A stretch of 64,000 bases of DNA from an uncultured Gemmatimonadales bacterium. Lineage in GTDB: Bacteria > Gemmatimonadota > Gemmatimonadetes > Longimicrobiales > RSA9. Each line of letters begins with the position of its first letter. Positions within the stretch are counted from its first letter, which is position 1. Location of the stretch: positions 1,792,001 to 1,856,000 of the forward strand of contig OY970192.1 of the NCBI GenBank assembly GCA_963708135.1. Reading direction: 5' to 3'. Positions 39,766 to 57,707 of this stretch are shown here, piece after piece. A program made the position numbers and the translations under genes. The notes under the pieces are model-generated. The model was not told the DNA's origin. It made no database searches and worked only from the letters and a program-made list of their open reading frames with translations.

Positions 39766-41032
39766 TCCGGAGGGCGGGCCGACGACGACGCGGGGGTCCG
39801 CCGCGTGTTCTACCGACCCTCCCGGCCCACCTCCGACGGACGCGCTCTCCTCGCCCTCTCACCCCTCCAGTTTCTGGAAGCACTTTCCCAGCTGATCCCG
39901 CCGCCCCGGGTTCACCGCCACCGCTACCACGGCGTTCTCGCCCCCAACGCACGGCTCCGGCCCCGGGTCGTCGCCCTCGAACGCGACGCAGAGGCCCACG
40001 CGGACGAGCGCCGCATCCTGCGCCTCTTCCAACGCCGCGGCCTCCTCGAGGAGCACACGGTGAACGACATGCTCACCTGGCAGGGCACCGGCGGCTTCAG
40101 CCTCGACGCCTCCGTCCGCATCCACGGCGCCGACCGGGCCGGCCGCGAGCGCCTCCTCCGCTACTGCGCCCGGCCGCCGTTTGCCCTCGATCGCCTGCGG
40201 ATCGAGCGTCAGTCCGGAGGGCGGGCCGACGACGACGCGGGGGTCCGCCGCGTGTTCTACCGACCCTCCCGGCCCACCTCCGACGGACGCGCTCTCCTCG
40301 CCCTCTCACCCCTCCAGTTTCTGGAAGCACTTTCCCAGCTGATCCCGCCGCCCCGGGTTCACCGCCACCGCTACCACGGCGTTCTCGCCCCCAACGCACG
40401 GCTCCGGCCCCGGGTCGTCGCCCTCGAACGCGACGCAGAGGCCCACGCGGACGAAGCCCACGGCGAGGGGCCCGGGGTCCACACCCACAACGAGCCCGCT
40501 ACCACCCTCACCGGCGCCGCCGCCCGCTCCCGCTGGGCCCAGCTCCTCGCCCGCATCTACGAGGTCTTCCCCCTCCGCTGCCCCGAGTGCGGATCGGACA
40601 TGCGCATCCTCGCTTTCCTCACCGACCCCGCGCCCGTGGGCGCCATCCTCCGACATCTCGACCTGCCCCATACCACACCGCCGCTCTCCCCCGCACGCGC
40701 TCCACCCCAAGTCGCACTCGCGCTCGACGCCGAGCCCCTCGCACCCGCCAATGCCCTGCCCCGCGACGACTTCGACCAGACGCCCGCGTTCGATCCGGCT
40801 GACCCCGAGCCCCTACCCGAGCTCGACCTCGACCAGACCCGCGGCGCCTGAACGGCCAGGTGCGCCCGGCAACCGCTACAGGCGCCAGGTCACACCCACA
40901 TCCGATGCCGAATCGACCGGAACCTCCACCCAATCCCGCTCGCCCGCCCATCACCCCCACCCTTGACCCGGCGAAACCACCCCGCCTATCCTACCGAAAG
41001 CAGCCGAAACGGCGTTTGGATTTCCTATCCCT
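39766..41032 (+). mobile_element. ISCR element, copy 3: 5'-truncated with an internal duplication, oriIS intact
   Basis: 39766-40007 is repeated within 40008-40851; the HUH and N-terminal Zn motifs are missing. Confidence 0.9.
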
Positions 41033-41262
41033 CACGATCCGTGCGTATTCCGGCCGAATCCGTCCAGTGATTCCGGTCGAAGCCGGCCACCGATTCCGGA
41101 CCATTCCGTCCACCCGTTCCGGAGCAATCCGTCCACCGATTCCGGGGATTCCGTCCTGCCATTCCGGCGGAATCCGTCCACCCTTGGGGGAGCGAAGCCG
41201 ACGCTGGATGACCTGAACCAGACCAGCCGCCACCTTGTGCGGGTCCTGAACCCGGAGGAGAG

Positions 41263-42834
41263 ATGGCGGCGGAGAGGTTGTCCATGCGGAAGATCAAGGA
41301 GGTGCTGCGGCTGAAGGCTGCAGGCCATGGGAACCGGGCGATCGCCCGGAGCCTGCGGATCGCGCACAGCACGGTCCGCGAGTACCTGAACCGGGCCGAG
41401 GCGGCGGAGCTGGGCTGGCCGCTGCCGGAGGGGCTGACGGAGGCGGAGCTCGAGGCCCGGCTTTTTCCGCCGCCGCAGCCGTCGAACGTGGCGCGTCCGC
41501 TGCCGGACTGGGCGGAGGTGCACCGGGAGCTGAAGTCGAAGAAGCGGAGCGGCGTCACGCTCCAGCTGCTCTGGCTCGAGTACAAGGAGGACCACCCGTA
41601 CGGGCTCCAGTACAGCCAGTTCTGCGAGCGGTACCGGCGGTGGCGGGGCGGGCTCGACCTGGTGCTCCGGCAGGAGCACCGCGCCGGGGAGAAGGTCTTC
41701 GTGGACTTCGCCGGCCAGACGGTGCCGGTGGTGGACCGGGGCACCGGGGAGATCCGCGAGGCCGAGATCTTCGTCGGGGTGCTGGGCGCCAGCAACTACA
41801 CCTACGCCGAAGCGTGCTGGAGCCAGGAGCTGCCCGAGTGGATCGGCGCGCACGTGCGCATGTACGAGTACTTCGGCGGGGTGCCGCAGCTCACGGTCCC
41901 CGACAACCTGAAGGCAGGGGTCCGCCACGCCTGCTACTACGAGCCGGACCTGAACCCGACGTATCACGAGTTGGCGGTGCACTACGGCACGGCCGTGCTG
42001 CCAGCCCGGGTCCGGAAGCCGAGGGACAAGGCGAAGGCGGAAGCGGGCGTGCTCCTGGTGGAGCGGTGGATCCTGGCCCGGCTCCGGAAGCTGACCTTCT
42101 TCAGCCTGGCCGAGCTGAACCGGGAGATCGCTCGTCTGCTGGAGCTCCTGAACGACCGGCCCTTCCAGAAGCTGGAGGGCAGCCGCCGCTCGCTCTTCGA
42201 GACGCTGGACCGGCCGGCGCTTCTCCCGCTCCCCGAGCAGCGCTACGAGTTTGCCCGCTGGAAGAAGGCCCGGGTCAACATCGACTACCACATCGATGTC
42301 CTCGGCCACTACTACAGCGTGCCCCACACCCTCGTCCGCCAGCAGGTGGACGTGCGCATCACCCGCACGAGCGTCGAGATCCTGCACTCCGGCCGCCGGG
42401 TGGCGGCGCATCTGCGGAGCCACCGCAAGGGTGGCTTCAGCACGGAGCCCGGACACCGGCCCAAGGCGCACCAGAAGCATCTCGAGTGGACGCCGTCGCG
42501 AATCGTCGCCTGGGCCGAGAAGACCGGGCCCGCCACGGGCGAGCTGGCCCGGCAGATCCTCGAGAGCAAGCCGCACCCGGAGCAGGGCTATCGCGCCTGC
42601 CTCGGTCTCCTGAGGCTCGGCGATCGACACTCTCCTGAAAGGCTCGAGGCCGCCTGCGCCCGCGCGTTGCGGATCGGCGGCGTCTCGTACCGCTCGGTCA
42701 AGTCCATCCTCCAGAGCGGACTCGACCGCCTCCCCCTGGAAGAGCAGGCGAGCCTCACCCTGCCCCAGAACCATGAACATCTGCGCGGCGGGACCTACTA
42801 CGCCGCCGCCGCCAACGGAGCCCTCTCATGCTGA
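41263..42834 (+). CDS. istA: IS21 transposase
   Basis: AGEKVFVDFAG, VPDNLK and PRDKAKAE motifs. Confidence 0.95.
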   Translation: MAAERLSMRKIKEVLRLKAAGHGNRAIARSLRIAHSTVREYLNRAEAAELGWPLPEGLTEAELEARLFPPPQPSNVARPLPDWAEVHRELKSKKRSGVTLQLLWLEYKEDHPYGLQYSQFCERYRRWRGGLDLVLRQEHRAGEKVFVDFAGQTVPVVDRGTGEIREAEIFVGVLGASNYTYAEACWSQELPEWIGAHVRMYEYFGGVPQLTVPDNLKAGVRHACYYEPDLNPTYHELAVHYGTAVLPARVRKPRDKAKAEAGVLLVERWILARLRKLTFFSLAELNREIARLLELLNDRPFQKLEGSRRSLFETLDRPALLPLPEQRYEFARWKKARVNIDYHIDVLGHYYSVPHTLVRQQVDVRITRTSVEILHSGRRVAAHLRSHRKGGFSTEPGHRPKAHQKHLEWTPSRIVAWAEKTGPATGELARQILESKPHPEQGYRACLGLLRLGDRHSPERLEAACARALRIGGVSYRSVKSILQSGLDRLPLEEQASLTLPQNHEHLRGGTYYAAAANGALSC

Positions 42835-43581
42835 CGCACCAGACCCTCGACCAGCTCCACGAGCTCCGCCTCACCGGCATGGCCCAGGCCCTGGAAGAAC
42901 AGAATGCGCATGCCCGACGTCGAGAGCCTCGCCTTCGACGACCGTCTGGCCCTCCTCCTGGAACGGGAGATCACCTTCCGCGACGACCGGCGCCTCACCC
43001 GGCTCCTCCAGGTGGCCAAGCTCCATCTTCAAGCCGCCATCGAGGACCTCGACTTCCGAAGCCCTCGAGGACTGGAGCGATCCCTCATCCTGCGCCTCTC
43101 CAGCGGCCAGTGGATCCGCGACCACCAGAGCGTCCTGATCTCCGGCGCCACGGGCACCGGCAAGAGCTTCCTGGCCTGCGCCCTCGGTCACAGCGCCTGC
43201 CGCCAGGGCCTGTCCACCCGCTACTACCGCTTCTCCCGGCTCCTCGGAGAGCTGGCTCTGGCCCGGGCCGACGGCTCCTACGCCAAGCTCCTCGACCGCC
43301 TGGCCAAGACCCAACTCCTCATCCTCGATGACTTCGGCCTCGCTCCACTCACCGACTCCGAGCGCCGTGATCTCCTCGAGGTCCTCGAAGACCGCTACGG
43401 CCGACGCGCCACCCTCGTCACCAGCCAGCTGCCCGTCGAGCACTGGCACGCGGTCATGGGAGACGCCACATTCGCCGACGCCATCCTGGATCGGCTCGTC
43501 CACAACGCCCACACCATCACCCTGAAAGGAGCATCCATGCGGCGGAAGAAGAATCAGACCCCCGCCGTCGCCGAGTCCTGA
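42828..43581 (+). pseudogene. istB: IS21 helper ATPase with a frameshift near 42905
   Basis: MLTHQTLDQL is in one frame; GATGTGKS and LILDDFG are in another. Confidence 0.88.
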
Positions 43582-43704
43582 ACACGCCAGCGTCGCTTCG
43601 CTCCGACCGGGTGGACGGCATGGACCGGAACGGGTGGACGGCTTGCGCCGGAACCGCTGGACGGCTTCCTCCGGAACTCGTGGACGGAATCACCGGAATA
43701 GGCA

Positions 43705-44197: not shown

Positions 44198-46050
44198 GGG
44201 TGTGGGCCGCCAGGTCCGGCGCTGACGGCCGGCGCGTTGTCCCGCTCCGCCATGGTGGTGCCCCGGGTCTCGTCGAACCCTTCGGGGCATGCCCACCGTC
44301 GCACGCCCCCGATCCGTTTGGGTCCCGCCGCAGGCGCAGGCGCACCGCCCAGGGCACTCCGCAACGCCACCCGCCCAGGCCGCCGTTTACCGCCGACGAC
44401 GGCCCACGGCCACGCCCCTCTACCCCATCGTCCAGCACCACATCGAGGGCTTCCTGGCCCGGGCCGCCGAAGCCGATCCCTGGGGCGAGGGCGTGGCCGG
44501 CTGGGTCGAGGCCGACTTCCGGGCCTACCTCCGCTGCGGCATCCTGGCCCACGGCTTCGCCCGCGTCCGCTGTGACGACTGCGCCGCCGAGCGCCTCGTC
44601 GCCTTCTCCTGCAAGGGCCGCGGCGTCTGCCCCTCCTGCAACGCCCGCCGGATGGTCGAGGTCGCCGCGCACCTGAACAACGCCGTCCTGCCGCCGCTCC
44701 CGATCCGCCAATGGGTCCTCTCCGTCCCGAAGCGGATCCGCCCCTTCTTCCACCACGATCCCGCCCTTGCCGGCGCCGTGCTCCGGATCCTGCTCCGGGC
44801 CGTCCGCACCCGCCTGCGTCACGGCAGTCCCGGTGCCGGCCCGGACGCGCAGATCGGCGCCGTCTCCTTCCTCCACCGCTTCGGCTCCGCCCTCAATCCC
44901 CACTTCCACTTCCACGTCGTGGTTCTCAATGGCGTCTTCACCGGGACCGTGGACGGCGAGGTCCGCTTCGATGAGGCGACCCACTTTTCCGCCGACGACG
45001 CCTCCGCCCTCACGCCCATCCTCCAGCGCCGCATCCTGCGCCTCTTCCAACGCCGCGGCCTCCTCGAGGAGCACACGGTGAACGACATGCTCACCTGGCA
45101 GGGCACCGGCGGCTTCAGCCTCGACGCCTCCGTCCGCATCCACGGCGCCGACCGGGCCGGCCGCGAGCGCCTCCTCCGCTACTGCGCCCGGCCGCCGTTT
45201 GCCCTCGATCGCCTGCGGATCGAGCGTCAGTCCGGAGGGCGGGCCGACGACGACGCGGGGGTCCGCCGCGTGTTCTACCGACCCTCCCGGCCCACCTCCG
45301 ACGGACGCGCTCTCCTCGCCCTCTCACCCCTCCAGTTTCTGGAAGCACTTTCCCAGCTGATCCCGCCGCCCCGGGTTCACCGCCACCGCTACCACGGCGT
45401 TCTCGCCCCCAACGCACGGCTCCGGCCCCGGGTCGTCGCCCTCGAACGCGACGCAGAGGCCCACGCGGACGAAGCCCACGGCGAGGGGCCCGGGGTCCAC
45501 ACCTACAACGAGCCCGCTACCACCCTCACCGGCGCCGCCGCCCGCTCCCGCTGGGCCCAGCTCCTCGCCCGCATCTACGAGGTCTTCCCCCTCCGCTGCC
45601 CCGAGTGCGGCTCGCAGATGCGCATCCTCGCTTTCCTCACCGACCCCGCGCCCGTGGGCGCCATCCTCCGACATCTCGACCTGCCCCACACCACACCGCC
45701 GCTCTCCCCCGCACGCGCTCCACCCCAAGCCGCACTCGCGCTCGACGCCGAGCCCCTCGCACCCGCCGATGCCCTGCCCCGCGACGACTTCGACCAGACG
45801 CCCGCGTTCGATCCGGCTGACCCCGAGCCCCTACCCGAGCTCGACCTCGACCAGACCCGCGGCGCCTGAACGGCCAGGTGCGCCCGGCAACCGCTACAGG
45901 CGCCAGGTCACACCCACATCCAATGCCGAATCGACCGGAACCTCCACCCAATCCCGCTCGCCCGCCCATCACCCCCACCCTTGACCCGGCGAAACCACCC
46001 CGCCTATCCTACCGAAAGCAGCCGAAACGGCGTTTGGATTTCCTATCCCT
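44198..46050 (+). mobile_element. ISCR element, copy 4
   Basis: Near-identical to copy 2; oriIS ends at 46050. Confidence 0.92.
44289..45869 (+). CDS. ISCR-type HUH transposase
   Basis: Same motifs as copy 1. Confidence 0.92.
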   Translation: MPTVARPRSVWVPPQAQAHRPGHSATPPAQAAVYRRRRPTATPLYPIVQHHIEGFLARAAEADPWGEGVAGWVEADFRAYLRCGILAHGFARVRCDDCAAERLVAFSCKGRGVCPSCNARRMVEVAAHLNNAVLPPLPIRQWVLSVPKRIRPFFHHDPALAGAVLRILLRAVRTRLRHGSPGAGPDAQIGAVSFLHRFGSALNPHFHFHVVVLNGVFTGTVDGEVRFDEATHFSADDASALTPILQRRILRLFQRRGLLEEHTVNDMLTWQGTGGFSLDASVRIHGADRAGRERLLRYCARPPFALDRLRIERQSGGRADDDAGVRRVFYRPSRPTSDGRALLALSPLQFLEALSQLIPPPRVHRHRYHGVLAPNARLRPRVVALERDAEAHADEAHGEGPGVHTYNEPATTLTGAAARSRWAQLLARIYEVFPLRCPECGSQMRILAFLTDPAPVGAILRHLDLPHTTPPLSPARAPPQAALALDAEPLAPADALPRDDFDQTPAFDPADPEPLPELDLDQTRGA

Positions 46051-46240
46051 GACGAGCTCACCGAGAGTATTTACATTTTGGATCGCCCAAGATATCGCCT
46101 CCACCTCAAACAAATGATGCGGGTGTTCTCAACAACTGGAAGCTAGAGGCAGTTAAGCAGCTTCAGACACTCATTGAAAAGGAATACGGAAAGACCTTGG
46201 AAACCCTTCTTATCCACCTTGCGAAGAGTTTGCATGAGTA
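46051..46240 (+). pseudogene. 3' fragment of an AT-rich hypothetical gene
   Basis: Open frame RAHREYLHFG...LAKSLHE* begins at the oriIS junction. Confidence 0.5.
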
Positions 46241-46294
46241 GCTATTCCTTCTATTGCCGCCTGAGGCAAAACACAAAATCATAGGGGAGGAAAC

Positions 46295-46681
46295 TTGAGC
46301 GATCGGGAGCAGGTTGTCGTAAAGACGTACAAGGGAAGGGAATCGAAAGCCGCAGAGCTGTTTCAAGAAGACGCAGCGAAAATGGCATTACAGGGTTACA
46401 TTCCGACATCGCAGAGTTGGGCTCCGGGTGCCTATGGGTGCGGCTCCTTCCTCTTCGCGCTGCTACTGTGCTTTGTCCTGATCGGATTCTTGGTTTTCAT
46501 TTACATGCTGCTGGTTAAGCCGGACGGAACACTTTCTGTAACGTACGAGCTGCGAATCGAAGTGCAAGGCTCGAAGCAATCTGCTCCAACCGCGGAAAAG
46601 ACATGCCCAAAGTGTGCGGAAAACGTAAAGGCGGCAGCTACTGTTTGTCGCTTCTGCGGACACAACTTCGAGCCGGCCTAA
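46295..46681 (+). CDS. Zinc-ribbon membrane protein (gene-cassette ORF)
   Basis: TM helix plus KTCPKCAE.VK..A.VCRFCG; ggagg RBS; stop codon lies inside the attC. Confidence 0.85.
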   Translation: MSDREQVVVKTYKGRESKAAELFQEDAAKMALQGYIPTSQSWAPGAYGCGSFLFALLLCFVLIGFLVFIYMLLVKPDGTLSVTYELRIEVQGSKQSAPTAEKTCPKCAENVKAAATVCRFCGHNFEPA

Positions 46682-46736
46682 CAAGGCCATGCAGGCGACG
46701 TCCGAAGACGCACGCGCCTGATGGCCGGCGTTAGGG
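46676..46736 (+). other. Integron attC site
   Basis: R'' gcctaac and R' gttagg; inner arms ggccatgcaggcg / cgcctgatggcc pair with one extrahelical G. Confidence 0.85.
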
Positions 46737-46894
46737 TTACAACAATGAAGCGTTCTCTCTGGAAACAAAGTCTTACCAAAAACTGGTGCCCTGCGTGGCC
46801 GTGCCCCGTTTGCCGAAAGGAGTCTGTAAAGCTTGTACCAAAATCACTTATATATAAAGAAAACGTCAATTCAAAACGAGCGCACAGCCATGAA

Positions 46895-48655
46895 CCTCCC
46901 GTATTCACCACGCGTAGGTTGAGCCGATTGAGCGCGTGATTTGGAATTCGGCGGCGGCGTGCGTGGCGCCCGGGCTGATTACGGGGACAGCCCCCCTTTC
47001 CCCCGGCGCGCCGCCGACGGCTCCGTGCTCCGATCGCTCCCCGCCCGAGAAGGCCTACGCTGGAGTGGGCAGGGCCAGGGCGGCGGGGGAGCCGCGGGCC
47101 GAGTAGCGCCGGCTCATTTCTCGCCAGAAGCGCTGCCACAGGTGCGCGCGGCCCGCGTCGATGACGAGCGTGAGTCGTCGGCCGCTCACCAGCACGCGTC
47201 CCGCCGCTTTGAGCACGAGTTGGCGGAAGCGCTGGCGGGTCATGACCTGACGTTCGCCGCACGAGACCAGTTCTGCGCCAGCTCTCAGCAGGTTGGCCGC
47301 GATGAGGCTCAGCAGCAGGCGCGCCTCGTTGGCGCCGAAGCTGTCGGTGTCGGGCTCGGGCGTGGCGACGCTCCGCCCGCGGTAGTGCTTCTTGGGCCGC
47401 GGCGCCGACGAGAGCGCCAGCGCCAGCGTGCTTTTCCAGTCCCCGAACTCCCGCTCGGCTTCTCCCCGCGCCCGGTAGCGCTCCAGCAGCGCCGGGCCGT
47501 CTACCTCTTCGGTGCTCGCGTTCGTGAGCAGGAAAAAATGGTCGAGGAACAGCTCCCCCTGCTCGTCCGAGCGCTCCAGCATCACGAGCACCACCCGGCG
47601 CGCATGGTCCCAGCGCCCGGCAGCATAGGTCAGCTCGTGCGTCCAGATCCGACCTTCGGCCGGCGGGTGTCCAGGCGGCCGCTTCAGGTACGGCGCCGCG
47701 AGTCTCTCCAGGCGTGCATTCCCACGCAGCCGGGCCACGTAGCGCACGCCCTCGTCCTCCAGCGTGGCCAGCAACTCGTTCTCCGGGAATCCCGCATCCA
47801 TGCGCAGCCACACCTGCTCCGCCTGCGTCTTCGCCCAGAGCACCGCGGGGACCACAAAGCCCAGCGCGCCTTGCGCCGTGTGCGCGTTTCCCTCTCGCAG
47901 CTCGGCCGCCAGGAAGTCTCCCAACTCCCAGCGCAGCACCAGCGGGTGGTAGCAGCAGCAGCCATAGTGCGCGTTCCACGAGCTGCCCGGCTGCAGCCCG
48001 TGCACTTCGACCGGCAGCGAATCCAGATCCAGCGTGACCTCCGCAACGCGCGGCGCGTTCCGGCCCCGCCGCCGCTCCGCACCCCGCAGCAGGAGCGTGG
48101 AAAGGCCCTGCCGGTTTCCCGGGTCGGCCAGCACCGCCAGGAGCCGCGACAGGGTTGGCTGAGAGGCCAGCCCGGAGGCCGCGCCCGCAGCCCCACCCCG
48201 CACCGGCGCCGTCCCCCGGCGCCGCGACACGGCCACGCGCAGCGCCGGATCGGCGCGCAGCAGGTCCGCATCCCGCTGGTCCGTCCATCCCTGCGCCAGC
48301 AGGAGCACCTGCGTGAGCATCAGCTCGAGGAAGTCGTGCGTGATCCGCGCGGGGTCGCGCGGGTCGTGCAGGTGGTGGTGGACCAGCGCCGGGAAGCCCA
48401 GCCGCTCCAGCAGCGCACGCAACAGCACCGCGCCCGCGTCCGAGGTCAGCCGCTCCGGTCGCGCCTCCACGCCCATCGAACGGTTGAAATCCAGCCGGAA
48501 AAGTGTACCTTGTTCTTCACCCATGGCGTGTTTGTCGTGTGGTCCGGAAGGATGGTTTGGTTTGCACCCCCATCTCACGGTCACACAGGCAGATGCGCCA
48601 TGGGCGCTTACGCCCTACACAACCCCTCCACTAACCCGCTCGTGAATACGGCAGG
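46895..48655 (-). mobile_element. IS1380-family element, copy 1
   Basis: IRs cct(c/g)ccgtattcac; 5-bp TSD atgaa. Confidence 0.95.
47055..48524 (-). CDS. IS1380 transposase
   Basis: LTSDAGA, LASQPTLSR, LDLDS, RMDAGF and YRARGEAE motifs. Confidence 0.92.
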   Translation of the reverse strand: MGEEQGTLFRLDFNRSMGVEARPERLTSDAGAVLLRALLERLGFPALVHHHLHDPRDPARITHDFLELMLTQVLLLAQGWTDQRDADLLRADPALRVAVSRRRGTAPVRGGAAGAASGLASQPTLSRLLAVLADPGNRQGLSTLLLRGAERRRGRNAPRVAEVTLDLDSLPVEVHGLQPGSSWNAHYGCCCYHPLVLRWELGDFLAAELREGNAHTAQGALGFVVPAVLWAKTQAEQVWLRMDAGFPENELLATLEDEGVRYVARLRGNARLERLAAPYLKRPPGHPPAEGRIWTHELTYAAGRWDHARRVVLVMLERSDEQGELFLDHFFLLTNASTEEVDGPALLERYRARGEAEREFGDWKSTLALALSSAPRPKKHYRGRSVATPEPDTDSFGANEARLLLSLIAANLLRAGAELVSCGERQVMTRQRFRQLVLKAAGRVLVSGRRLTLVIDAGRAHLWQRFWREMSRRYSARGSPAALALPTPA

Positions 48656-48684
48656 ATGAAGCATGGGACCCTGATTGGATTGAA

Positions 48685-50445
48685 CCTCCCGTATTCACCA
48701 CGCGTAGGTTGAGCCGATTGAGCGCGTGATTTGGAATTCGGCGGCGGCGTGCGTGGCGCCCGGGCTGATTACGGGGACAGCCCCCCTTTCCCCCGGCGCG
48801 CCGCCGACGGCTCCGTGCTCCGATCGCTCCCCGCCCGAGAAGGCCTACGCTGGAGTGGGCAGGGCCAGGGCGGCGGGGGAGCCGCGGGCCGAGTAGCGCC
48901 GGCTCATTTCTCGCCAGAAGCGCTGCCACAGGTGCGCGCGGCCCGCGTCGATGACGAGCGTGAGTCGTCGGCCGCTCACCAGCACGCGTCCCGCCGCTTT
49001 GAGCACGAGTTGGCGGAAGCGCTGGCGGGTCATGACCTGACGTTCGCCGCACGAGACCAGTTCTGCGCCAGCTCTCAGCAGGTTGGCCGCGATGAGGCTC
49101 AGCAGCAGGCGCGCCTCGTTGGCGCCGAAGCTGTCGGTGTCGGGCTCGGGCGTGGCGACGCTCCGCCCGCGGTAGTGCTTCTTGGGCCGCGGCGCCGACG
49201 AGAGCGCCAGCGCCAGCGTGCTTTTCCAGTCCCCGAACTCCCGCTCGGCTTCTCCCCGCGCCCGGTAGCGCTCCAGCAGCGCCGGGCCGTCTACCTCTTC
49301 GGTGCTCGCGTTCGTGAGCAGGAAAAAATGGTCGAGGAACAGCTCCCCCTGCTCGTCCGAGCGCTCCAGCATCACGAGCACCACCCGGCGCGCATGGTCC
49401 CAGCGCCCGGCAGCATAGGTCAGCTCGTGCGTCCAGATCCGACCTTCGGCCGGCGGGTGTCCAGGCGGCCGCTTCAGGTACGGCGCCGCGAGTCTCTCCA
49501 GGCGTGCATTCCCACGCAGCCGGGCCACGTAGCGCACGCCCTCGTCCTCCAGCGTGGCCAGCAACTCGTTCTCCGGGAATCCCGCATCCATGCGCAGCCA
49601 CACCTGCTCCGCCTGCGTCTTCGCCCAGAGCACCGCGGGGACCACAAAGCCCAGCGCGCCTTGCGCCGTGTGCGCGTTTCCCTCTCGCAGCTCGGCCGCC
49701 AGGAAGTCTCCCAACTCCCAGCGCAGCACCAGCGGGTGGTAGCAGCAGCAGCCATAGTGCGCGTTCCACGAGCTGCCCGGCTGCAGCCCGTGCACTTCGA
49801 CCGGCAGCGAATCCAGATCCAGCGTGACCTCCGCAACGCGCGGCGCGTTCCGGCCCCGCCGCCGCTCCGCACCCCGCAGCAGGAGCGTGGAAAGGCCCTG
49901 CCGGTTTCCCGGGTCGGCCAGCACCGCCAGGAGCCGCGACAGGGTTGGCTGAGAGGCCAGCCCGGAGGCCGCGCCCGCAGCCCCACCCCGCACCGGCGCC
50001 GTCCCCCGGCGCCGCGACACGGCCACGCGCAGCGCCGGATCGGCGCGCAGCAGGTCCGCATCCCGCTGGTCCGTCCATCCCTGCGCCAGCAGGAGCACCT
50101 GCGTGAGCATCAGCTCGAGGAAGTCGTGCGTGATCCGCGCGGGGTCGCGCGGGTCGTGCAGGTGGTGGTGGACCAGCGCCGGGAAGCCCAGCCGCTCCAG
50201 CAGCGCACGCAACAGCACCGCGCCCGCGTCCGAGGTCAGCCGCTCCGGTCGCGCCTCCACGCCCATCGAACGGTTGAAATCCAGCCGGAAAAGTGTACCT
50301 TGTTCTTCACCCATGGCGTGTTTGTCGTGTGGTCCGGAAGGATGGTTTGGTTTGCACCCCCATCTTACGGTCACACAGGCAGATGCGCCATGGGCGCTTA
50401 CGCCCTACACAACCCCTCCACTAACCCGCTCGTGAATACGACAGG
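48685..50445 (-). mobile_element. IS1380-family element, copy 2
   Basis: Same IRs as copy 1; 5-bp TSD ttgaa. Confidence 0.95.
48845..50314 (-). CDS. IS1380 transposase
   Basis: Protein identical to copy 1. Confidence 0.92.
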   Translation of the reverse strand: MGEEQGTLFRLDFNRSMGVEARPERLTSDAGAVLLRALLERLGFPALVHHHLHDPRDPARITHDFLELMLTQVLLLAQGWTDQRDADLLRADPALRVAVSRRRGTAPVRGGAAGAASGLASQPTLSRLLAVLADPGNRQGLSTLLLRGAERRRGRNAPRVAEVTLDLDSLPVEVHGLQPGSSWNAHYGCCCYHPLVLRWELGDFLAAELREGNAHTAQGALGFVVPAVLWAKTQAEQVWLRMDAGFPENELLATLEDEGVRYVARLRGNARLERLAAPYLKRPPGHPPAEGRIWTHELTYAAGRWDHARRVVLVMLERSDEQGELFLDHFFLLTNASTEEVDGPALLERYRARGEAEREFGDWKSTLALALSSAPRPKKHYRGRSVATPEPDTDSFGANEARLLLSLIAANLLRAGAELVSCGERQVMTRQRFRQLVLKAAGRVLVSGRRLTLVIDAGRAHLWQRFWREMSRRYSARGSPAALALPTPA

Positions 50446-51054
50446 TTGAATACACATTTACCGCCTGGGCGGAATGCGGACATCAATCTTGTAAACAGCA
50501 GTTTGCAATAGCTGGCGTAGGTGGCGTCTCACCTGAACAGACTGAGGACGGGTTTGAGTGGGAGGACTACTTCGCACCTCAAATCTGCCAACCCATGCCA
50601 GATATGTTGGATTTTCCAAAAAAATGTCCGGACGAAGTCAAAGAAGAACTCCGAGCGGCATTTGGGCTCTTCTGGTCGCACCAAGCTGCCTGTGCTGGTC
50701 GGATTCGCGTTTCCCTTGAGTGCCTGATGAACCACTTAGGTTAGGCATACCAAAACGAAAGAAAGATAAGAACGGAAAATATTTTGACTTATCTTATCTC
50801 TCCATGCGCGCATTGATGTCTTTGCAAAAGCAGAGCCGAATGTAGGTTCACATCTAATGGCGCTGAAATGGTTAGGAAACGCTGGAAGTCACAATGGAGA
50901 AGTCAGGAAAGACGACTTGCTGGATGCGTTCGAAATTATGGAGCATGCGCTAGTTGAGATCATAGACAAGCGCTCGGCCAAAGTTGCTGCCCTAGCCAAA
51001 AAAATTACAAAAAAACATGGTCGATAGAAACTCTACCTTGTCACTCAACCGGAC

Positions 51055-51447
51055 GTGTCACTCGTCGCGGGGCATCTGGAGGCGCACGTCCCGCCAGGCA
51101 CGCGGCTCACCCTGGCCGGCGACAGCTACGGCGCGCGCGCGGCCTCCATCGCGCCCGATCATTTTGCACTGCAGGCCGCCGACGCGGCGCTCCACGCCGT
51201 CTACGGCGTGCACCCGCTCGTAGTGCGCTCGGGCGGCACGGTGCCCATCGCCGAGCTCTTTCAGCGGCATCTCGGGTTGGACACCGTGTTCTTTTCCTTC
51301 AGCACGGCCGACGAGGACTTCCACGCTCCCAACGAGTTCTTCCGCGTGCACCGGCTGCACGAAGGGCTCGAGGCGTGGGCGCGCTACTGGGAGATTCTAG
51401 GCGAGCGGGGATCCAGCTCGCCAGGAGCGCCACCCCGGGGCGGCTGA
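51055..51447 (+). pseudogene. M20-family dipeptidase, C-terminal fragment
   Basis: RSGGTVPI and DEDFHAPNEFF; no N-terminal region. Confidence 0.8.
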
Positions 51448-51467
51448 AGGTTGAAGGAGCACGGCGG

Positions 51468-52460
51468 CTATCGGCTGACGAACTTCAGGAGCTGGCGCCC
51501 TCCGGTGTCGGCCAGGTAGACGACGCTGTCGCCCTGCACCGCGAGTGCGTGCGCCGTCACGACGTTGGCGGCCGTGGCCGGAATGTGGTCCACCTCGCGG
51601 AGATCGCGGTCGAGCATCACCACGAGGTCCGCCCCACCTTTCACCGCGAGGTACAGGCGCCCGCTCTCGCTCACGGCCACGTCGAAGACGCGCCCGGCGC
51701 TCCGGCCCGGCCGCCCCTCGCGCGGCCACTCCCCCAGATACGTGCCCGTGGTGTCGAACACCTGCAGACGCGCGTTCTCCCGGTCGGCCACGTAGACGCG
51801 GTCGAGTCCGCCCACCGCGATGCCGTGGGGGACGTGGAACTCACCTGGGTCTGCCCCCTCGTGGCCCCACTCGCGCACGAAGGCGCCCGTCCGGTCGAAG
51901 CGTGCCACTCGCGCGTTGATGTAACCGTCGCTCACGTAGAACGAGCCGTCGGCGCAGACGAACACGTCCGTCGGCTGATCGAAGTGCGTCGCGTCCCACC
52001 CCGGCGCGCGCCGGTGGCCGATCGTGCGAACGGGTGCGCCGTCGTGCGAGAACTCGAGCACCTGCTGCCGGCCGACGTCGGTCAGCCAGACGTTGTCGTC
52101 GGCGTCAACCGTCAGCGAATGCGGCACGAGGAACATCCCGGCGCCCCAGGAGTGCAGCAGCGCTCCGGTGACCGCGTCGAGCTCGAGCACCGTCGGCGCG
52201 GTGATTGGCTGCGTGGCCGTCGGCTCGAAGCTTCGCCCCGCCCGGTGGAACAGCAGCACATGACCGTGCGAGTCCAGCGCCACGCCCGAGACTTCACCGA
52301 GGCGCAGGCCGGGGGCAAGGCGTGGCCAACCCTCCACGCGCTTCCAGCGGGAAGTCGGTGCGCCCGACGCTGCGTGGCCCGGCTGCGGCGGTCGCGTAGG
52401 GCCATGCGGCCCGAGGGCCAGACATCCGGCGAGCAGAAGAGCTTTGCGGCTGCCAGGCAT
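51468..52460 (-). CDS. NHL-repeat protein, peptidyl-alpha-hydroxyglycine alpha-amidating lyase-like
   Basis: PHSLTVD..NVWLTDV, FDQPTDV, SDGY.NAR, PHGIA and VADREN motifs. Confidence 0.85.
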   Translation of the reverse strand: MPGSRKALLLAGCLALGPHGPTRPPQPGHAASGAPTSRWKRVEGWPRLAPGLRLGEVSGVALDSHGHVLLFHRAGRSFEPTATQPITAPTVLELDAVTGALLHSWGAGMFLVPHSLTVDADDNVWLTDVGRQQVLEFSHDGAPVRTIGHRRAPGWDATHFDQPTDVFVCADGSFYVSDGYINARVARFDRTGAFVREWGHEGADPGEFHVPHGIAVGGLDRVYVADRENARLQVFDTTGTYLGEWPREGRPGRSAGRVFDVAVSESGRLYLAVKGGADLVVMLDRDLREVDHIPATAANVVTAHALAVQGDSVVYLADTGGRQLLKFVSR

Positions 52461-52563
52461 CGGTCAGAGTCTCCCTTGCAGTACGTCAACGACGGCGGGC
52501 GGCGCGCATTCGCGCTCGACCACGCAGGGATGGGCGTGATCCGCGTCCAGCTCTTCGGTCACG

Positions 52564-52745
52564 CTAGCGACTTCCCATTTCGAGTTTGCGGCGCAGCTCC
52601 TCACGCCAGTTGAGCGCGACCACGATGTCGCGGTCGCGCTGGGCCGCGTCGCGCACGACGACGAAGCCCTTGCCGTCCGGGCGCACATCGAACCCGCCCA
52701 GCAGGCAGCTGAGGTTCGCGAACCGGTCCGTGCCGGCAGCATTGT
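52564..52745 (-). pseudogene. C-terminal scrap of a kinase/TolB-like propeller protein
   Basis: FDVRPDGKGFVVV...IVVALNWREELRRK. Confidence 0.55.
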
Positions 52746-53033
52746 CAATATGGGCCGAACGACCTCGGTCGGAACAGGGCGTTCCTCCTTGCTTCGCTCG
52801 CCCCAGGCCGCGTCGCGTCAAATGCTGTGACCGGTACGGCGAGATCGTCACCGGGATCCTGACGGCCGCGCACGGTACCGCATGAGGAGGCAAGGATCAT
52901 TCGACCGGGAATCCGATGGCGGCGGTTCGGCTCGATCGCCAGGGCGCGCGCGCGGCTGCCCGCCGCAGCGCGATCTTGCACTGCGGTAATCACCATGGTA
53001 ATATGACCATGGACACCATTCGAGAGCTTTATT

Positions 53034-53345
53034 ATGGCGAAGAAGAAGATCTCGGAAGCAGCCGTGGCGCCCTTCGCGCCAACCGGGGCGCCGCACACCG
53101 TGCAGGCCAGCACGTTCAAGGCGACGTGTCTCGAATTGATGGACGAAATCGAAGCGAGCGGATTCGAGGTCGTCGTCACCAAGCACGGCCGCCCCGTGGT
53201 GAAGGTGGGACCGGTGGAGCCGAGCGTCCCTTCTCCGTTGGGGTTTCTGCGCGGGACCGTCGTGGATGAGGGAGACTTGGTGAGCCCCGACCACGACGCA
53301 TGGAGCGAGGCGGTGGCGGACCCGCTCCACACGGATCGGAAGTAG
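53034..53345 (+). CDS. Phd/YefM-family antitoxin
   Basis: ASTFKATCLELMDE...VVVTKHGRPVVK. Confidence 0.88.
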   Translation: MAKKKISEAAVAPFAPTGAPHTVQASTFKATCLELMDEIEASGFEVVVTKHGRPVVKVGPVEPSVPSPLGFLRGTVVDEGDLVSPDHDAWSEAVADPLHTDRK

Positions 53346-53776
53346 TGGCGACCGTGCGCGCGGTGCGCGAGCGGCCCCAGCGCCGGCCGCGGCGCGCGCG
53401 CGCACCAAAGCGCGTGGCGGGTTCGGTGCTCTGGCGCGCGGTGGAGGAACCGGAGCGCGAAGACGCCCTGCTCCTGGACACGCACGTGTGGCTGTGGACG
53501 CTCGCCGGCACCACGGAGCGACTGGCCGCGCAGGCGGTCGCGCTCGTGCAGTCAGCCGCGGCCGCCGGCCGCCTCTACGTGAGCGACATTTCCTTCTGGG
53601 AGGTGTCGCTCAAGGCATCGAAACGGAAGCTGACGCTGGTGATCGATCCCACCCTCTGGCTCGAGCGCGCCGCGCGGGCACCGGGCATTCGCGCGCTGCC
53701 GCTCGCGCGCGAGGTGCTGATCCAGAGCACGCGCCTTCCGGGCGCTATGCACGGCGATCCCGCCGACCGCATGCTC
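53345..53776 (+). pseudogene. vapC: VapC/PIN toxin, 3'-truncated
   Basis: LLDTHVWLW, SDISFWE and HGDPADRML, then an abrupt junction; the final 'LVT.D' motif is missing. Confidence 0.82.
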
Positions 53777-53860
53777 TGCAGTGGACATTGCGCGCGGAGG
53801 ATAAGGTAGGCGCCACCTACAGGCTCACGGACACGAATCCCGTCCGCAGACATTAGCGAA

Positions 53861-53893
53861 AGCCCCCCGACCAACGGTCGGGGGGTTTTTTTT
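53861..53893 (+). terminator. Rho-independent terminator
   Basis: ccccccgacc-aac-ggtcgggggg stem-loop followed by a T8 tract. Confidence 0.85.
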
Positions 53894-53905
53894 AAAAAAT
53901 ATTTT

Positions 53906-54811
53906 CAGTACTGTCCGGTTAAGCTGAGATGATGATGCCGTAACGGATTGCTACGTGGTGCGTTACGACGTTTTGGTTGCCGCACCGATTTGAACTTCGC
54001 TGCTGCGCCGCTATCCTGCCCGGACCCCCCGGCCGGAGTGGCGCATGAATCCCGGAAGCACGGTTTTCTCACAGGTGATGGCCCACGCATCTCGCTTCGC
54101 GCTCGATCGGTGCATCCGCCGCTACCACGGCAACCGGAGGGTCCGACGTTTCTCGTGTCGGGACCAGTTCCTCGCCATGGCCTTTGCCCAGCTCACCTAC
54201 CGGGAGAGCCTGCGGGACCTCGAGGCCACCCTCGGGGCGGCCCCCGAGAAGCTGTACCATCTTGGCTTCCGTTCGCCGCTCTCTCGCAGCACGCTCGCCG
54301 ATGCGAACGAGAATCGCGACTGGCGCATCTACGCCGATTTCGCTCAACGCCTGATCGCAGACGCGCGTCGGCTCTACGCCGACGACACGTTGGGGATCGA
54401 GCTCACGAACACCGTCTACGCGCTGGATTCCACCACGATCGACCTGTGTTTGGACCAACGACGTCGCGCTGCCCGCCGTTACCGTGGCCGAGCTCTACCG
54501 CCTGCGGTGGCAGATCGAGCTCTTCTTCAAATGGATCAAGCAGCACCTCAGGATCAAGCGCTTCTTCGGCACGAGCGCGAACGCTTTGCGCACGCAGATC
54601 TGGATCGCGATCAGCGTTTACGTCCTCGTCGCGATCGTCCGCAAGCGGCTCCGGATCGAGCGCGAACTCTACACAATTCTACAGATCCTGAGCGTCTATG
54701 CGTTCGAGAAAGCCCCTCTCGCACAAGTACTTACGCGTTCGGCCTACACCCCCGAAGTCCCCTCCGATCGTAACCAGTTGTCGCGCTTCAACTTATAACC
54801 GGACACTACTG
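53906..54811 (+). mobile_element. IS4 element, copy 2, with an internal deletion of about 416 bp
   Basis: Same ends as 25458-26779; 9-bp TSD aaatatttt; deletion junction near 54451. Confidence 0.95.
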
Positions 54812-54826
54812 AAATATTTTCTAAAT

Positions 54827-55507
54827 TTACTTTTCTTCCTCGCCTTTTTCTTTCTTTTCTTTCTTCTCTTCCTTTTCTTCGCCTTCCTCGCCTTCGGCTT
54901 CCTCTTTGCCTTCCTTCTTCACGCCCTCAACGGCTTCTTCGAGATCTACCTCGGTCGGCTGGGCCAATTCTGCTTCGAGCTCTTCTTCGGACTTCGGCGG
55001 CTGGACGGCGGCGACGGTCATCTCCGGATCATCCACCAGAATCTCCACCTTACTGTGGTCCACCGGCAAATCCTTGACGCGGATGGCGTCCTCGAAATTT
55101 TTCAAAGCCGAAATATCCACGACAATCTCCGAAGGCAGGTCGCCCGGCAAGCTCTCGACTTCGACTTCATAAAGAGTCGGCACGAAAGTGCCCTGCAGTT
55201 CTTTGACCGCCGGAGATTCGCCGACGAATTCGATCGGCACGGTGGCCGTCAGTTTTTCCGCCATATTCACCTGGTAAAAATCCACGTGCGTAATCTGGCC
55301 TCGGGTGATGTGCTTCTGAATGTCTTGGATCAAGACCTTGACCGGCTCGGTCTCCCCCACTTGCAGGCCGACGATAGTGCTCTCGCCGGCGTCACGATAG
55401 ATTTTTTCAAAATCACCCGCCGGCACGGACAAGGAACGCGCCTCGATCCCGTGCCCGTACAGAACCCCGGGGATATAGCCGGCGTGGCGAAGTCCTTTCG
55501 CTTTTTC
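54827..55507 (-). pseudogene. rplY: 50S ribosomal protein L25 (Ctc-type), 5'-truncated, foreign composition
   Basis: GYIPGVLYG, HVDFYQV, VPIEFVGESPAVK, LPGDLP and an acidic/Lys tail; no start codon. Confidence 0.9.
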
Positions 55508-55854
55508 TGGGCGCGCGCCGGCGGACCTGGCAGCGCCTCGGCGGACCCTCGCGCGTGCAGCACCGCCGAGCGGCCCTTGGTGGCGCCGGGCGGCCTCCTC
55601 AGTCCTGCGGCGCCATCGGCAGCTCGCGCACGTGCCGGCCCGTGAGCGCGAACCAGGCGTTGGTGAGCGCCGGGGCGGCGGGTGGGAGGCCCGGCTCGCC
55701 GACCCCCCCCGGGTCCTCGCGGCTGTCCACGATGTGCACGTCGATCTCGGGCGCCTCCAGTGGAGCCGGCGGGAGTCGAACCCGCACCAGATCCCCCACC
55801 CCCGGATCGCGATTCGCCAGTAACCGCAACAACTATGAGCGGTTTCGACCGTCG
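55508..55854 (+). repeat. Third copy of the IorB-fragment / tmRNA-end segment (matches 22542-22888)
   Basis: Near-identical sequence; contains the 25-bp tmRNA end at 55761-55785. Confidence 0.95.
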
Positions 55855-57707
55855 GGGTGTGGGCCGCCAGGTCCGGCGCTGACGGCCGGCGCGTTGTCCC
55901 GCTCCGCCATGGTGGTGCCCCGGGTCTCGTCGAACCCTTCGGGGCATGCCCACCGTCGCACGCCCCCGATCCGTTTGGGTCCCGCCGCAGGCACAGGCGC
56001 ACCGCCCAGGGCACTCCGCAACGCCACCCGCCCAGGCCGCCGTTTACCGCCGACGACGGCCCACGGCCACGCCCCTCTACCCCATCGTCCAGCACCACAT
56101 CGAGGGCTTCCTGGCCCGGGCCGCCGAAGCCGATCCCTGGGGCGAGGGCGTGGCCGGCTGGGTCGAGGCCGACTTCCGGGCCTACCTCCGCTGCGGCATC
56201 CTGGCCCACGGCTTCGCCCGCGTCCGCTGTGACGACTGCGCCGCCGAGCGCCTCGTCGCCTTCTCCTGCAAGGGCCGCGGCGTCTGCCCCTCCTGCAACG
56301 CCCGCCGGATGGTCGAGGTCGCCGCGCACCTGAACGACGCCGTCCTGCCGCCGCTCCCGATCCGCCAATGGGTCCTCTCCGTCCCGAAGCGGATCCGCCC
56401 CTTCTTCCACCACGATCCCGCCCTTGCCGGCGCCGTGCTCCGGATCCTGCTCCGGGCCGTCCGCACCCGCCTGCGTCACGGCAGTCCCGGTGCCGGCCCG
56501 GACGCGCAGATCGGCGCCGTCTCCTTCCTCCACCGCTTCGGCTCCGCCCTCAATCCCCACTTCCACTTCCACGTCGTGGTTCTCGATGGCGTCTTCACCG
56601 GGACCGTGGACGGCGAGGTCCGCTTCGATGAGGCGACCCACTTTTCCGCCGACGACGCCTCCGCCCTCACGCCCGTCCTCCAGCGCCGCATCCTGCGCCT
56701 CTTCCAACGCCGCGGCCTCCTCGAGGAGCACACGGTGAACGACATGCTCACCTGGCAGGGCACCGGCGGCTTCAGCCTCGACGCCTCCGTCCGCATCCAC
56801 GGCGCCGACCGGGCCGGCCGCGAGCGGCTCCTCCGCTACTGCGCCCGGCCGCCGTTTGCCCTCGATCGCCTGCGGATCGAGCGTCAGTCCGGAGGGCGGG
56901 CCGACGACGACGCGGGGGTCCGCCGCGTGTTCTACCGACCCTCCCGGCCCACCTCCGACGGACGCGCCCTCCTCGCCCTCTCACCCCTCGAGTTTCTGGA
57001 AGCACTTTCCCGACTGATCCCGCCGCCCCGGGTTCACCGCCACCGCTACCACGGCGTTCTCGCCCCCAACGCACGGCTCCGGCCCCACGTCGTCGCCCTC
57101 CAACGCGACGCAGAGGCCCACGCGGACGAAGCCCACGGCGAGGGGCCCGGGGTCCACACCTACAACGAGCCCGCTACCACCCTCACCGGCGCCGCCGCCC
57201 GCTCCCGCTGGGCCCAGCTCCTCGCCCGCATCTACGAGGTCTTCCCCCTCCGCTGCCCCGAGTGCGGCTCGCAGATGCGCATCATCGCTTTCCTCACCGA
57301 CCCCGCGCCCGTGGGCGCCATCCTCCGACATCTCGACCTGCCCCACACCACACCGCCGCTCTCCCCCGCACGCGCTCCACCCCAAGCCGCACTCGCGCTC
57401 GACGCCGAGCCCCTCGCACCCGCCGATGCCCTGCCCCGCGACGACTTCGACCAGACGCCCGCGTTCGATCCGGCTGACCCCGAGCCCCTACCCGAGCTCG
57501 ACCTCGACCAGACCCGCGGCGCCTGAACGGCCAGGTGCGCCCGGCAACCGCTACAGGCGCCAGGTCACACCCACATCCGATGCCGAATCGACCGGAACCT
57601 CCACCCAATCCCGCTCGCCCGCCCATCACCCCCACCCTTGACCCGGCGAAACCACCCCGCCTATCCTACCGAAAGCAGCCGAAACGGCGTTTGGATTTCC
57701 TATCCCT
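55855..57707 (+). mobile_element. ISCR element, copy 5
   Basis: Near-identical to the other copies; oriIS ends at 57707. Confidence 0.92.
55946..57526 (+). CDS. ISCR-type HUH transposase
   Basis: Same motifs as copy 1. Confidence 0.92.
   Translation: MPTVARPRSVWVPPQAQAHRPGHSATPPAQAAVYRRRRPTATPLYPIVQHHIEGFLARAAEADPWGEGVAGWVEADFRAYLRCGILAHGFARVRCDDCAAERLVAFSCKGRGVCPSCNARRMVEVAAHLNDAVLPPLPIRQWVLSVPKRIRPFFHHDPALAGAVLRILLRAVRTRLRHGSPGAGPDAQIGAVSFLHRFGSALNPHFHFHVVVLDGVFTGTVDGEVRFDEATHFSADDASALTPVLQRRILRLFQRRGLLEEHTVNDMLTWQGTGGFSLDASVRIHGADRAGRERLLRYCARPPFALDRLRIERQSGGRADDDAGVRRVFYRPSRPTSDGRALLALSPLEFLEALSRLIPPPRVHRHRYHGVLAPNARLRPHVVALQRDAEAHADEAHGEGPGVHTYNEPATTLTGAAARSRWAQLLARIYEVFPLRCPECGSQMRIIAFLTDPAPVGAILRHLDLPHTTPPLSPARAPPQAALALDAEPLAPADALPRDDFDQTPAFDPADPEPLPELDLDQTRGA

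What the first reader, a model, noticed from the sequence alone, without database searches (positions are those of the whole stretch)
46051..51054. Integron cassette array fragment captured behind oriIS (attC without intI)
Seen: an abrupt GC drop at oriIS 46050, a canonical 61-bp attC between a zinc-ribbon gene and a DUF4145 gene, and a possible truncated attC left half (ctctaccttgtcactcaaccggac, 51031-51054) after the second gene. No intI is present. Inference: the ISCR sampled another organism's integron array and may supply its promoter. This would be an environmental analogue of ISCR1-linked complex class 1 integrons.
Basis: partly seen in the sequence, partly recalled or inferred. Interest (0 to 1): 0.7.

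Follow-up and report, generated by a model that had tools for sequence, protein, structure and literature searches.

The report
Orphan integron cassettes behind rolling-circle transposon
A 1.5-kb scrap of foreign gene-cassette DNA, holding one intact recombination site, one intact gene and one gene wrecked by two later insertion sequences, sits directly behind the end of a rolling-circle jumping gene in a bacterium where no intact integron integrase was found; it is likely DNA the jumping gene landed in, and similar arrangements are already known.

Summary
46676-46736 is a canonical attC: 49.9 bits, E 3.6e-9, with a model built from other sites. 51031-51054 is the left arm of a second attC, cut off at a join to a broken dipeptidase gene. 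GC falls from 72% to 46% exactly at the oriIS end (46050). No intact intI was found, though a broken remnant lies 1 Mb away. The real fragment is about 1.47 kb. IS91-type elements carry DNA from the terIS side; DNA behind oriIS is target. The five co-oriented IS91 copies show read-through, an oriIS circle junction and recombination, so the cassettes were likely hit by an IS91 copy and then fixed by recombination between copies. Only 1 of 40 oriIS-motif loci in relatives has an attC behind it, so there is no strong integron preference. The layout differs from complex class 1 integrons (no integron on the terIS side). The scan noted similar IS91-end patchworks in other genomes. Verdict: a new member of a known kind.

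The parts
44289..45869 (+). IS91/ISCR-type HUH (Y2) transposase, copy 4 of five co-oriented copies; its natural terIS is replaced by a tmRNA 3'-end copy and upstream host DNA
   Evidence: Pfam Y2_Tnp and Zn_Tnp_IS91 over cut-off; NCBIfam ISCR clade Ia 277 bits and IS91 96 bits, both under cut-off; boundaries
45981..46010 (+). Outward sigma-70-like promoter candidate (TTGACC, 18 nt, TATCCT)
   Evidence: 1 found, 0.4 expected; TTGAC at -100..-41 of the end in 16 of 40 relatives' loci against 2 of 40 in a downstream control; untested
46034..46050 (+). oriIS end; the sequence switches to foreign DNA at 46050/46051
46051..46298 (+). 3' remnant of an unidentified ORF, cut at oriIS, with an internal stop and a probable frameshift
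   Evidence: no credible homologue
46295..46681 (+). Intact 128-aa membrane zinc-ribbon (UPF0547) gene; its start overlaps the previous stop and its stop codon lies in the attC R'' box
46676..46736 (+). Canonical 61-bp attC (bottom strand folds)
46745..51027 (+). DUF4145 cassette gene (246 aa when whole), broken by two IS1380 insertions and two 5-bp duplications near 50736 and 50789
   Evidence: pieces 88-95% identical to P0121 in changing frames; duplications; weak HEPN-like leads
46895..48655 (-). IS1380-family element, 5-bp target duplication ATGAA
   Evidence: 99.8-99.9% identical to three copies elsewhere in the genome
48685..50445 (-). Second, independent IS1380 insertion, 5-bp target duplication TTGAA
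51031..51054 (+). Left arm of a second attC (degenerate R''), truncated at a non-homologous join
51054..51447 (+). 3' remnant of an M20 dipeptidase gene; a contig of run X1 reads the gene uncut across 51054
53906..54811 (+). Internally deleted host IS4 with a 9-bp target duplication, inserted at the end of a foreign rplY fragment
54827..55507 (-). 5'-truncated bL25 (rplY) gene, 54% GC; named homologues mostly Patescibacteria; abuts IS91 copy 5
   Evidence: 36% identical to the host's own rplY
55508..57707 (+). IS91 copy 5 (no terIS), closing the block that begins at 46051
41016..41041 (+). oriIS of copy 3 joined directly to sequence found inside the methyltransferase gene upstream of copy 1 (22393): circle-type junction; IS21 (41042-43704) inserted just after it

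Best explanation
This is a decayed 1.47-kb piece of an integron cassette array (gene remnant, intact zinc-ribbon gene, attC, dead DUF4145 gene, half attC) joined exactly to the oriIS end of an IS91/ISCR element, and it likely marks DNA that such an element inserted into and that was then likely fixed in the host's IS91 array by recombination between near-identical copies. Shown: the anatomy, the exact left junction in mid-gene, the right junction in mid-attC with one shared base, two later host IS1380 insertions, five co-oriented IS91 copies with distinct SNP patterns, and no intact integrase. Inferred: (i) the transposase joined oriIS to a cassette gene in a donor replicon or in incoming DNA; (ii) the piece entered the array by homologous crossover in the IS91 body, with an illegitimate join at the far end that cut the dipeptidase gene; (iii) the outward promoter of oriIS would transcribe the zinc-ribbon gene; (iv) the AT-rich DNA then drew IS1380 insertions. 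Without an integrase the attC would be idle.
For: Direction of IS91 carriage and the target next to oriIS: PMC13181058, PMC3189936 (passages). The DNA these copies do share lies on their terIS side: copies 4 and 5 carry different lengths of DNA from upstream of copy 1, starting at 22393 and 22542, and copy 3's oriIS is joined to position 22393. Recombination between copies: mosaic SNPs, and copy 1 is 98-99% identical to copy 4 until about 350 bp from its end, then 54-72%. Behind copy 1 lies a rhodanese gene 80% identical to a host paralogue, as expected if a relative's end plus downstream DNA was swapped in. All IS91 parts are co-oriented in 6 of 6 multi-part clusters of relatives. A second oriIS-cassette junction exists in G042, whose other contigs hold further attC sites. 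An uncut dipeptidase allele in run X1 fixes the right junction at 51054. The host has four Ku genes and comEC. PMC3189936 proposes that IS801 fragments act mainly as recombination regions (passages).
Against: No donor replicon and no empty-site allele for the left junction was found, so the order of events is inferred. Copy 4's 3' end is 99-100% identical to copies 2, 3 and 5, so this junction carries no foreign-end signature like copy 1's. No target consensus follows oriIS in 26 loci, unlike the tetranucleotide of IS91 proper. The block is also sandwiched between two oriIS ends, which fits read-through capture by copy 5. Ku and comEC are common genes and do not show that they acted here. Promoter activity is untested.
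Confidence: 0.55

Rival explanations
1. The cassette fragment was already in the island, from another transfer or from the host lineage's own decayed integron. An IS91 copy inserted into it in place, and deletions trimmed both ends. The IS91 is then only a neighbour and a possible promoter.
For: The host has a broken intI with a weak attC-like site 1 Mb away; 102 of 251 genomes sampled from the phylum have an intI over cut-off. In G042 the attC behind oriIS is 94 bp, like four other attC sites of that genome. CALINs are thought to arise by rearrangements mediated by transposable elements (bioRxiv 10.1101/2022.09.11.507474, passages).
Against: The 5' part of the cut ORF was not seen on the terIS side of copies 3 or 4 (sequence). 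The fragment is 49% GC, below the 55-68% of six arrays from the same class. No near-identical copy of the fragment lies elsewhere in the genome.
Confidence: 0.22
2. Rolling-circle capture: copy 5, which lacks terIS, read through the upstream DNA and ended at 46051 or at the previous oriIS, so that 46051-55507 is its cargo and the left junction is a circle junction.
For: One such circle junction is present at copy 3. A two-oriIS sandwich has been proposed to capture the gene between them (PMC12772301, passages citing Yuan et al.). Tandem ISCR1-qnrVC6-ISCR1-blaPER-1 exists (PMC10885872).
Against: The block is a mosaic of at least four unrelated pieces (49% GC cassettes, 70% GC dipeptidase/NHL genes, a cut PIN toxin gene, a 54% GC CPR-like rplY). 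Its inner joins carry no oriIS or terIS, so read-through cannot have built it; it could only move it. No second copy of the block exists in the genome.
Confidence: 0.13
3. The arrangement is partly an assembly product: alternative IS91-flanking haplotypes or chimeric reads were strung into one array.
For: A contig of run X1 at depth 7 reads the dipeptidase gene uncut across 51054. All near-identical copies of the element lie within 36 kb of one contig.
Against: Host IS1380 and IS4 copies sit in the foreign pieces with target duplications, and an X1 contig runs from inside IS1380 into the DUF4145 gene. The five copies have distinct SNP blocks. The left junction is exact to the base. Independent genomes show co-oriented IS91 clusters.
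Confidence: 0.08
4. An integrase acting in trans inserted a cassette at a secondary genomic site (attC x attG), giving a SALIN that happens to lie next to oriIS.
For: A single complete attC and no intact integrase fit the SALIN definition.
Against: Neither end of the fragment lies at an attC crossover point: the left end is mid-gene at oriIS, the right end is inside the left arm of a second attC.
Confidence: 0.02

Closest known systems
SALIN / small CALIN (attC sites lacking an integron integrase; bioRxiv 10.1101/2022.09.11.507474, passages)
   Same: A cassette gene with a canonical attC and no integrase gene nearby.
   Different: One and a half attC sites; the ends are an IS91 oriIS junction and an illegitimate join, not attC x attG crossovers.
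ISCR1 variable region of complex class 1 integrons, including ISCR1-qnrVC6-ISCR1-blaPER-1 (PMC6218425 Results; PMC10885872, PMC8876359 and PMC3575428, passages)
   Same: Foreign genes on the oriIS side, in the direction of an outward promoter; tandem co-oriented elements; qnrVC alleles are cassette genes traced to chromosomal integrons.
   Different: No class 1 integron or 3'-CS on the terIS side, no resistance gene, most cargo dead, transposase under the ISCR clade Ia cut-off.
IS801/IS91 one-ended transposition and partial copies as recombination regions (PMC3189936 and PMC13181058, passages)
   Same: HUH Y2 transposase, oriIS essential end, carriage of upstream DNA, oriIS circle junctions, truncated copies.
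   Different: No tetranucleotide target consensus was found here; the copies cluster beside tmRNA and several carry a tmRNA 3'-end copy in place of terIS.
ISCR28 in the sul4 module (PMC12772301, passages)
   Same: attC sites reported at the end of, or right after, an ISCR gene in environmental bacteria.
   Different: There the module is tied to integrase genes and to sul4; here the attC is 625 bp behind oriIS and belongs to an unrelated cassette.

Membership tests
attC site (46676-46736) | R'' RYYYAAC and R' GTTRRRY boxes with 5-6 nt spacers | tested here: met
   GCCTAAC and GTTAGGG, 6 of 7 complementary; the last base departs from Y (consensus recalled)
attC site (46676-46736) | Complementary L boxes with an extrahelical base; bottom-strand hairpin | tested here: met
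   7 of 7 with an extra G; z -5.1; covariance model 49.9 bits
attC site (46676-46736) | Recombined by an IntI integrase | not testable with these tools
   needs an excision or suicide-conjugation assay
attC site (51031-51054) | Complete site able to fold | tested here: not met
   left arm only, R'' core ACC; no model hit, no hairpin; arm type confirmed
Complete integron | intI and attI next to the array | tested here: not met
   no intI over cut-off in the genome; a broken remnant 1 Mb away; attI not searched
SALIN | Single attC with a CDS, no integrase or other att site nearby | tested here: met
   one complete attC in the window; a half-site also present; IntegronFinder itself was not run
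CALIN | Two or more attC sites without integrase | tested here: not met
   only one complete site
IS91/ISCR family | HUH Y2 transposase with zinc-binding N-terminus | tested here: met
   PF04986 and PF14319 over cut-off; NCBIfam IS91 and ISCR Ia models match under cut-off
IS91/ISCR family | Distinct oriIS and terIS ends, no target duplication | tested here: met
   conserved oriIS end; a conserved left end in copy 2 and in G012, G025, G032; no duplication seen at copy 2
IS91/ISCR family | Tetranucleotide target next to oriIS | tested here: not met
   no consensus over 26 junctions
IS91/ISCR family | One-ended carriage of terIS-side DNA | tested here: met
   by sequence signature only: copies 4 and 5 and the copy 3 junction
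Complex class 1 integron | Class 1 integron with 3'-CS on the terIS side of ISCR1, often a second 3'-CS | tested here: not met
   the terIS side holds a tmRNA 3'-end copy, a methyltransferase piece and IS21; no intI
Complex class 1 integron | Outward promoter in oriIS drives the downstream gene | tested here: inconclusive
   conserved -35-like box; no expression data

The most novel reading that the evidence does not exclude
The tmRNA-linked IS91 array is a standing trap for community DNA: near-identical IS91 copies act as recombination anchors that pull in whatever follows a relative's oriIS, end joining seals the far side, and the conserved outward promoter expresses the catch. That makes it an integrase-free platform that has taken up integron cassettes and even a Patescibacteria-like ribosomal-protein gene. 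Integron pieces may be over-represented (an attC or intI fragment within 0.8 kb behind 3 of 46 oriIS-motif ends examined, counting the six of this genome).
Probability: 0.15. Interest if true: 0.6.

Novelty: new member of a known kind. Interest (0 to 1): 0.3.

Why it matters
It is a clean environmental example of cassette DNA leaving the integron system and coming to rest behind an IS91/ISCR end with an outward promoter. That is the route by which genes such as qnrVC are found behind ISCR1 in clinical strains. The locus keeps a readable order of events: circle junction, swapped end, cut attC, later IS hits. It carries no resistance gene and most of its cargo is dead, so it changes little by itself. 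It would matter more if these arrays were shown to take up community DNA, including CPR DNA, on a continuing basis.

Tried and rejected
Heuristic attC scan of the genome: 17 candidates, only the window's site canonical; the fold filter missed true long sites, so the covariance model was used. The genome-wide model search scored only 150 of 11,097 candidates and returned the window's site alone, but missed a 26.7-bit site found later, so 'only attC' means only strong one. Twenty regions on the 5' side of relatives' intI genes gave no arrays; arrays lay on the 3' side. First ORF: one spurious repeat-protein hit and no Atlas hit at 0.9 or more. DUF4145 homologue P0121: model pLDDT 91.5, no PDB match at E 0.001 or better; HEPN toxins 7bxo and 7ae6 at probability 0.9 but E 0.1-0.2, and PD-T7-4 at E 0.002, are leads only. 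The zinc-ribbon model had pTM 0.34 and was not searched. Plasmid homologues of DUF4145 were at most 36% identical in the 20 of 130 records listed and were not followed; no plasmid match to the attC. The genomic context of the closest DUF4145 homologues could not be fetched, so their cassette status is untested. The four viral-contig matches to the oriIS motif looked like chance matches in low-GC DNA and were left out. Run X1 (contigs only, possibly the source sample, not independent): no listed contig bridges 46050 or 51054, and there is a hole at 50799-50841; holes prove nothing. Depth on an IS91 piece was 9.9 where shared 31-mers occur 3.8 times, against 24.9 for IS21 (2.9), 30.5 for IS1380 (5.0), 56.3 for IS4 (7.4) and 7.3 for a single-copy piece. 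This is a weak hint of fewer IS91 copies in that run; the tool states that depth is no copy number. Donor assignment by attC similarity was uninformative (34-47 matches to ten sites). Toleman 2006 and Xia 2010 were not held. No RNA run was examined.
Full report
Setting. The window is C1:1,792,001-1,856,000 of a single-contig, 5.45-Mb, 72% GC genome, 97.65% complete. The one named relative found for the transposase is from an uncultured Gemmatimonadaceae genome, 67% identical; the host's own taxonomy was not determined. All five near-identical copies of an IS91/ISCR-type element lie in the window, on the + strand, ending at 24760, 38344, 41032, 46050 and 57707, downstream of a tmRNA gene at 62515-62879.

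Observation. GC falls from 0.724 to 0.457 at 46050/46051. The attC at 46676-46736 has canonical boxes, folds on the bottom strand with z -5.1 and scores 49.9 bits, E 3.6e-9, with a covariance model built from seven attC sites of other DNA. The same model recovered many held-out array sites. The stop codon of the intact 128-aa UPF0547 zinc-ribbon gene lies in R'', and the next gene starts 8 nt after R'. Of 47 metagenomic loci with near full-length homologues of the zinc-ribbon gene (47 of the 80 returned), 6 have a model-scored attC within 150 nt after the gene (two share one sequence) and 9 have one somewhere in the locus. The family is thus a real but not exclusive cassette family. The motif at 51031-51054 is the left arm of a second attC: its 15-mer begins a complete attC in 5 of 5 viral-contig matches, but R'' is degenerate and the rest is missing. 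No intI passes the TIGR02249 cut-off. A frameshifted C-terminal intI remnant with a 26.7-bit attC-like site lies about 1 Mb away.

About 3.5 kb of the 5.0-kb interval is two separate IS1380 insertions, each with its own 5-bp target duplication and 99.8-99.9% identical to three copies elsewhere in the genome. They and two frame-shifting 5-bp duplications break a DUF4145 gene whose pieces are 88-95% identical to a 246-aa homologue. The duplications may be footprints of excised elements (inference). The first ORF is cut at oriIS and has an internal stop. The foreign fragment is therefore about 1.47 kb with one intact gene. At 51054 it is joined, with one shared base, to the 3' part of an M20 dipeptidase gene; a contig of run X1 reads that gene uncut across the same base. 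Further right follow an NHL-repeat gene, a cut PIN toxin gene, and a 5'-truncated rplY whose named homologues are mostly Patescibacteria and which carries a host IS4 with a 9-bp duplication at its end; then comes copy 5. The cassettes are one tile of a patchwork.

Mechanism. In IS91 and IS801, transposition starts at oriIS, failure to stop at terIS carries adjacent DNA (upstream DNA in IS801), the target tetranucleotide lies next to oriIS, and circles join oriIS to the terminating end (PMC13181058 and PMC3189936, passages). The window shows these signatures on the expected side. Copy 2 keeps a left end also seen in G012, G025 and G032. Copies 1, 4 and 5 lack it; copies 4 and 5 carry different lengths of the DNA upstream of copy 1; and copy 3's oriIS is joined to the very base (22393) where copy 4's extra DNA begins. 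DNA behind an oriIS is therefore target or circle junction, not cargo of that copy. The copies have mosaic SNPs. Copy 1 switches from 98-99% to 54-72% identity for most of its last 350 bp and is followed by a gene 80% identical to a host paralogue, the pattern expected when a relative's end and its downstream DNA recombine in. I infer the same route for the cassettes (0.55). Insertion in place into a resident fragment (0.22), read-through cargo of copy 5 (0.13), an assembly artefact (0.08) and integrase-mediated insertion (0.02) are the rivals. A promoter-like site at 45981-46010 points outward, and TTGAC lies at -100..-41 in 16 of 40 relatives' ends against 2 of 40 in a control stretch. Activity is untested, and only the zinc-ribbon gene could benefit.

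Is there a link to integrons? Forty non-redundant loci with the oriIS motif (up to one mismatch; some may be chance matches) from searches of 151 and 401 genomes were scanned; 38 had at least 700 bp downstream. One (G042, L223) has a truncated cassette and a 94-bp attC 125 bp behind oriIS; that genome has at least nine attC sites and no intI match in a fragmented assembly. One (G035) has a C-terminal intI fragment about 530 bp behind oriIS. With this genome's six ends that makes 3 of 46. That is more than random placement would give, but it is explained equally well by shared residence in accessory DNA. No target consensus was found.

Comparison. By definition this is a SALIN-like remnant. The analogy with complex class 1 integrons holds for genes on the oriIS side under an outward promoter, and qnrVC6, an allele of a cassette gene traced to Vibrio chromosomal integrons, is known behind ISCR1 (whether its attC is retained there I did not see). 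It fails on the defining class 1 integron at the terIS side. attC sites right after ISCR28 have been reported. Searches listed no paper on cassette remnants behind IS91 ends in this group of bacteria. The library lacks most subscription papers, Toleman 2006 and Xia 2010 were not held, and no supplements were read. Papers were seen as passages, plus the Results section of PMC6218425. Earlier notes of the scan describe similar co-oriented IS91-end patchworks in other genomes and gave the lead to PMC3189936.

Reliability. Host insertion sequences with target duplications inside the foreign pieces, distinct haplotypes of the copies and co-oriented clusters in 6 of 6 relatives' multi-part regions argue that the locus is real. 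Contigs of run X1 match 46059-46867 without a difference and run from IS1380 into the DUF4145 gene, but that run may be the source sample and raw reads were not available.

Verdict. A real, canonical attC in a small, mostly dead cassette remnant at an IS91 oriIS junction; a new member of a known kind; interest 0.3.

Noticed in passing
window:54827-55507, with IS4 at 53906-54811: A 5'-truncated rplY of Patescibacteria-like affinity, with a host IS4 inserted at its 3' end, abuts IS91 copy 5: apparent CPR DNA in this chromosome.
   Followed up: partly
window:22796, 44105, 55762 and tmRNA at 62515-62879; also L039, L041, L043, L047: Copies of the tmRNA 3' end sit just upstream of IS91 copies 1, 4 and 5, and similar pairs occur in relatives.
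   Followed up: partly
L202, L209, L210, L211, L215, L220, L227, L228, L238, L239, L256: In 11 of 40 relatives' loci the oriIS end is followed by one or more repeats of its own terminal motif, like a short telomere. Unexplained.
   Followed up: no
window:24420-24760: The last 350 bp of IS91 copy 1 are mostly 54-72% identical to the other copies and are followed by a rhodanese gene 80% identical to a host paralogue: a swapped-in end.
   Followed up: partly
L180, L188, L193, L197: In relatives of the same class, attC arrays lie on the 3' side of intI and on the same strand (reverse-type layout); none were found on the 5' side in 20 regions.
   Followed up: partly
G000:C1:2843601-2844447 (L003): Frameshifted C-terminal intI remnant with a degenerate attC-like site: a dead host integron.
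   Followed up: partly
window:38345-39141: Behind copy 2's oriIS lies the C-terminal part of a helicase matching PADLOC ZacC (E 5e-48).
   Followed up: no
window:50736-50798: Two 5-bp tandem duplications 53 bp apart shift the DUF4145 frame; possibly footprints of excised elements in a host with four Ku genes.
   Followed up: partly
window:26847-35838: Two diverged copies of a subtilase gene and its neighbour, interrupted by several insertion sequences.
   Followed up: no
window:39766-40454: IS91 copy 3 is 5'-truncated and has a 242-bp internal piece repeated in front of it.
   Followed up: no
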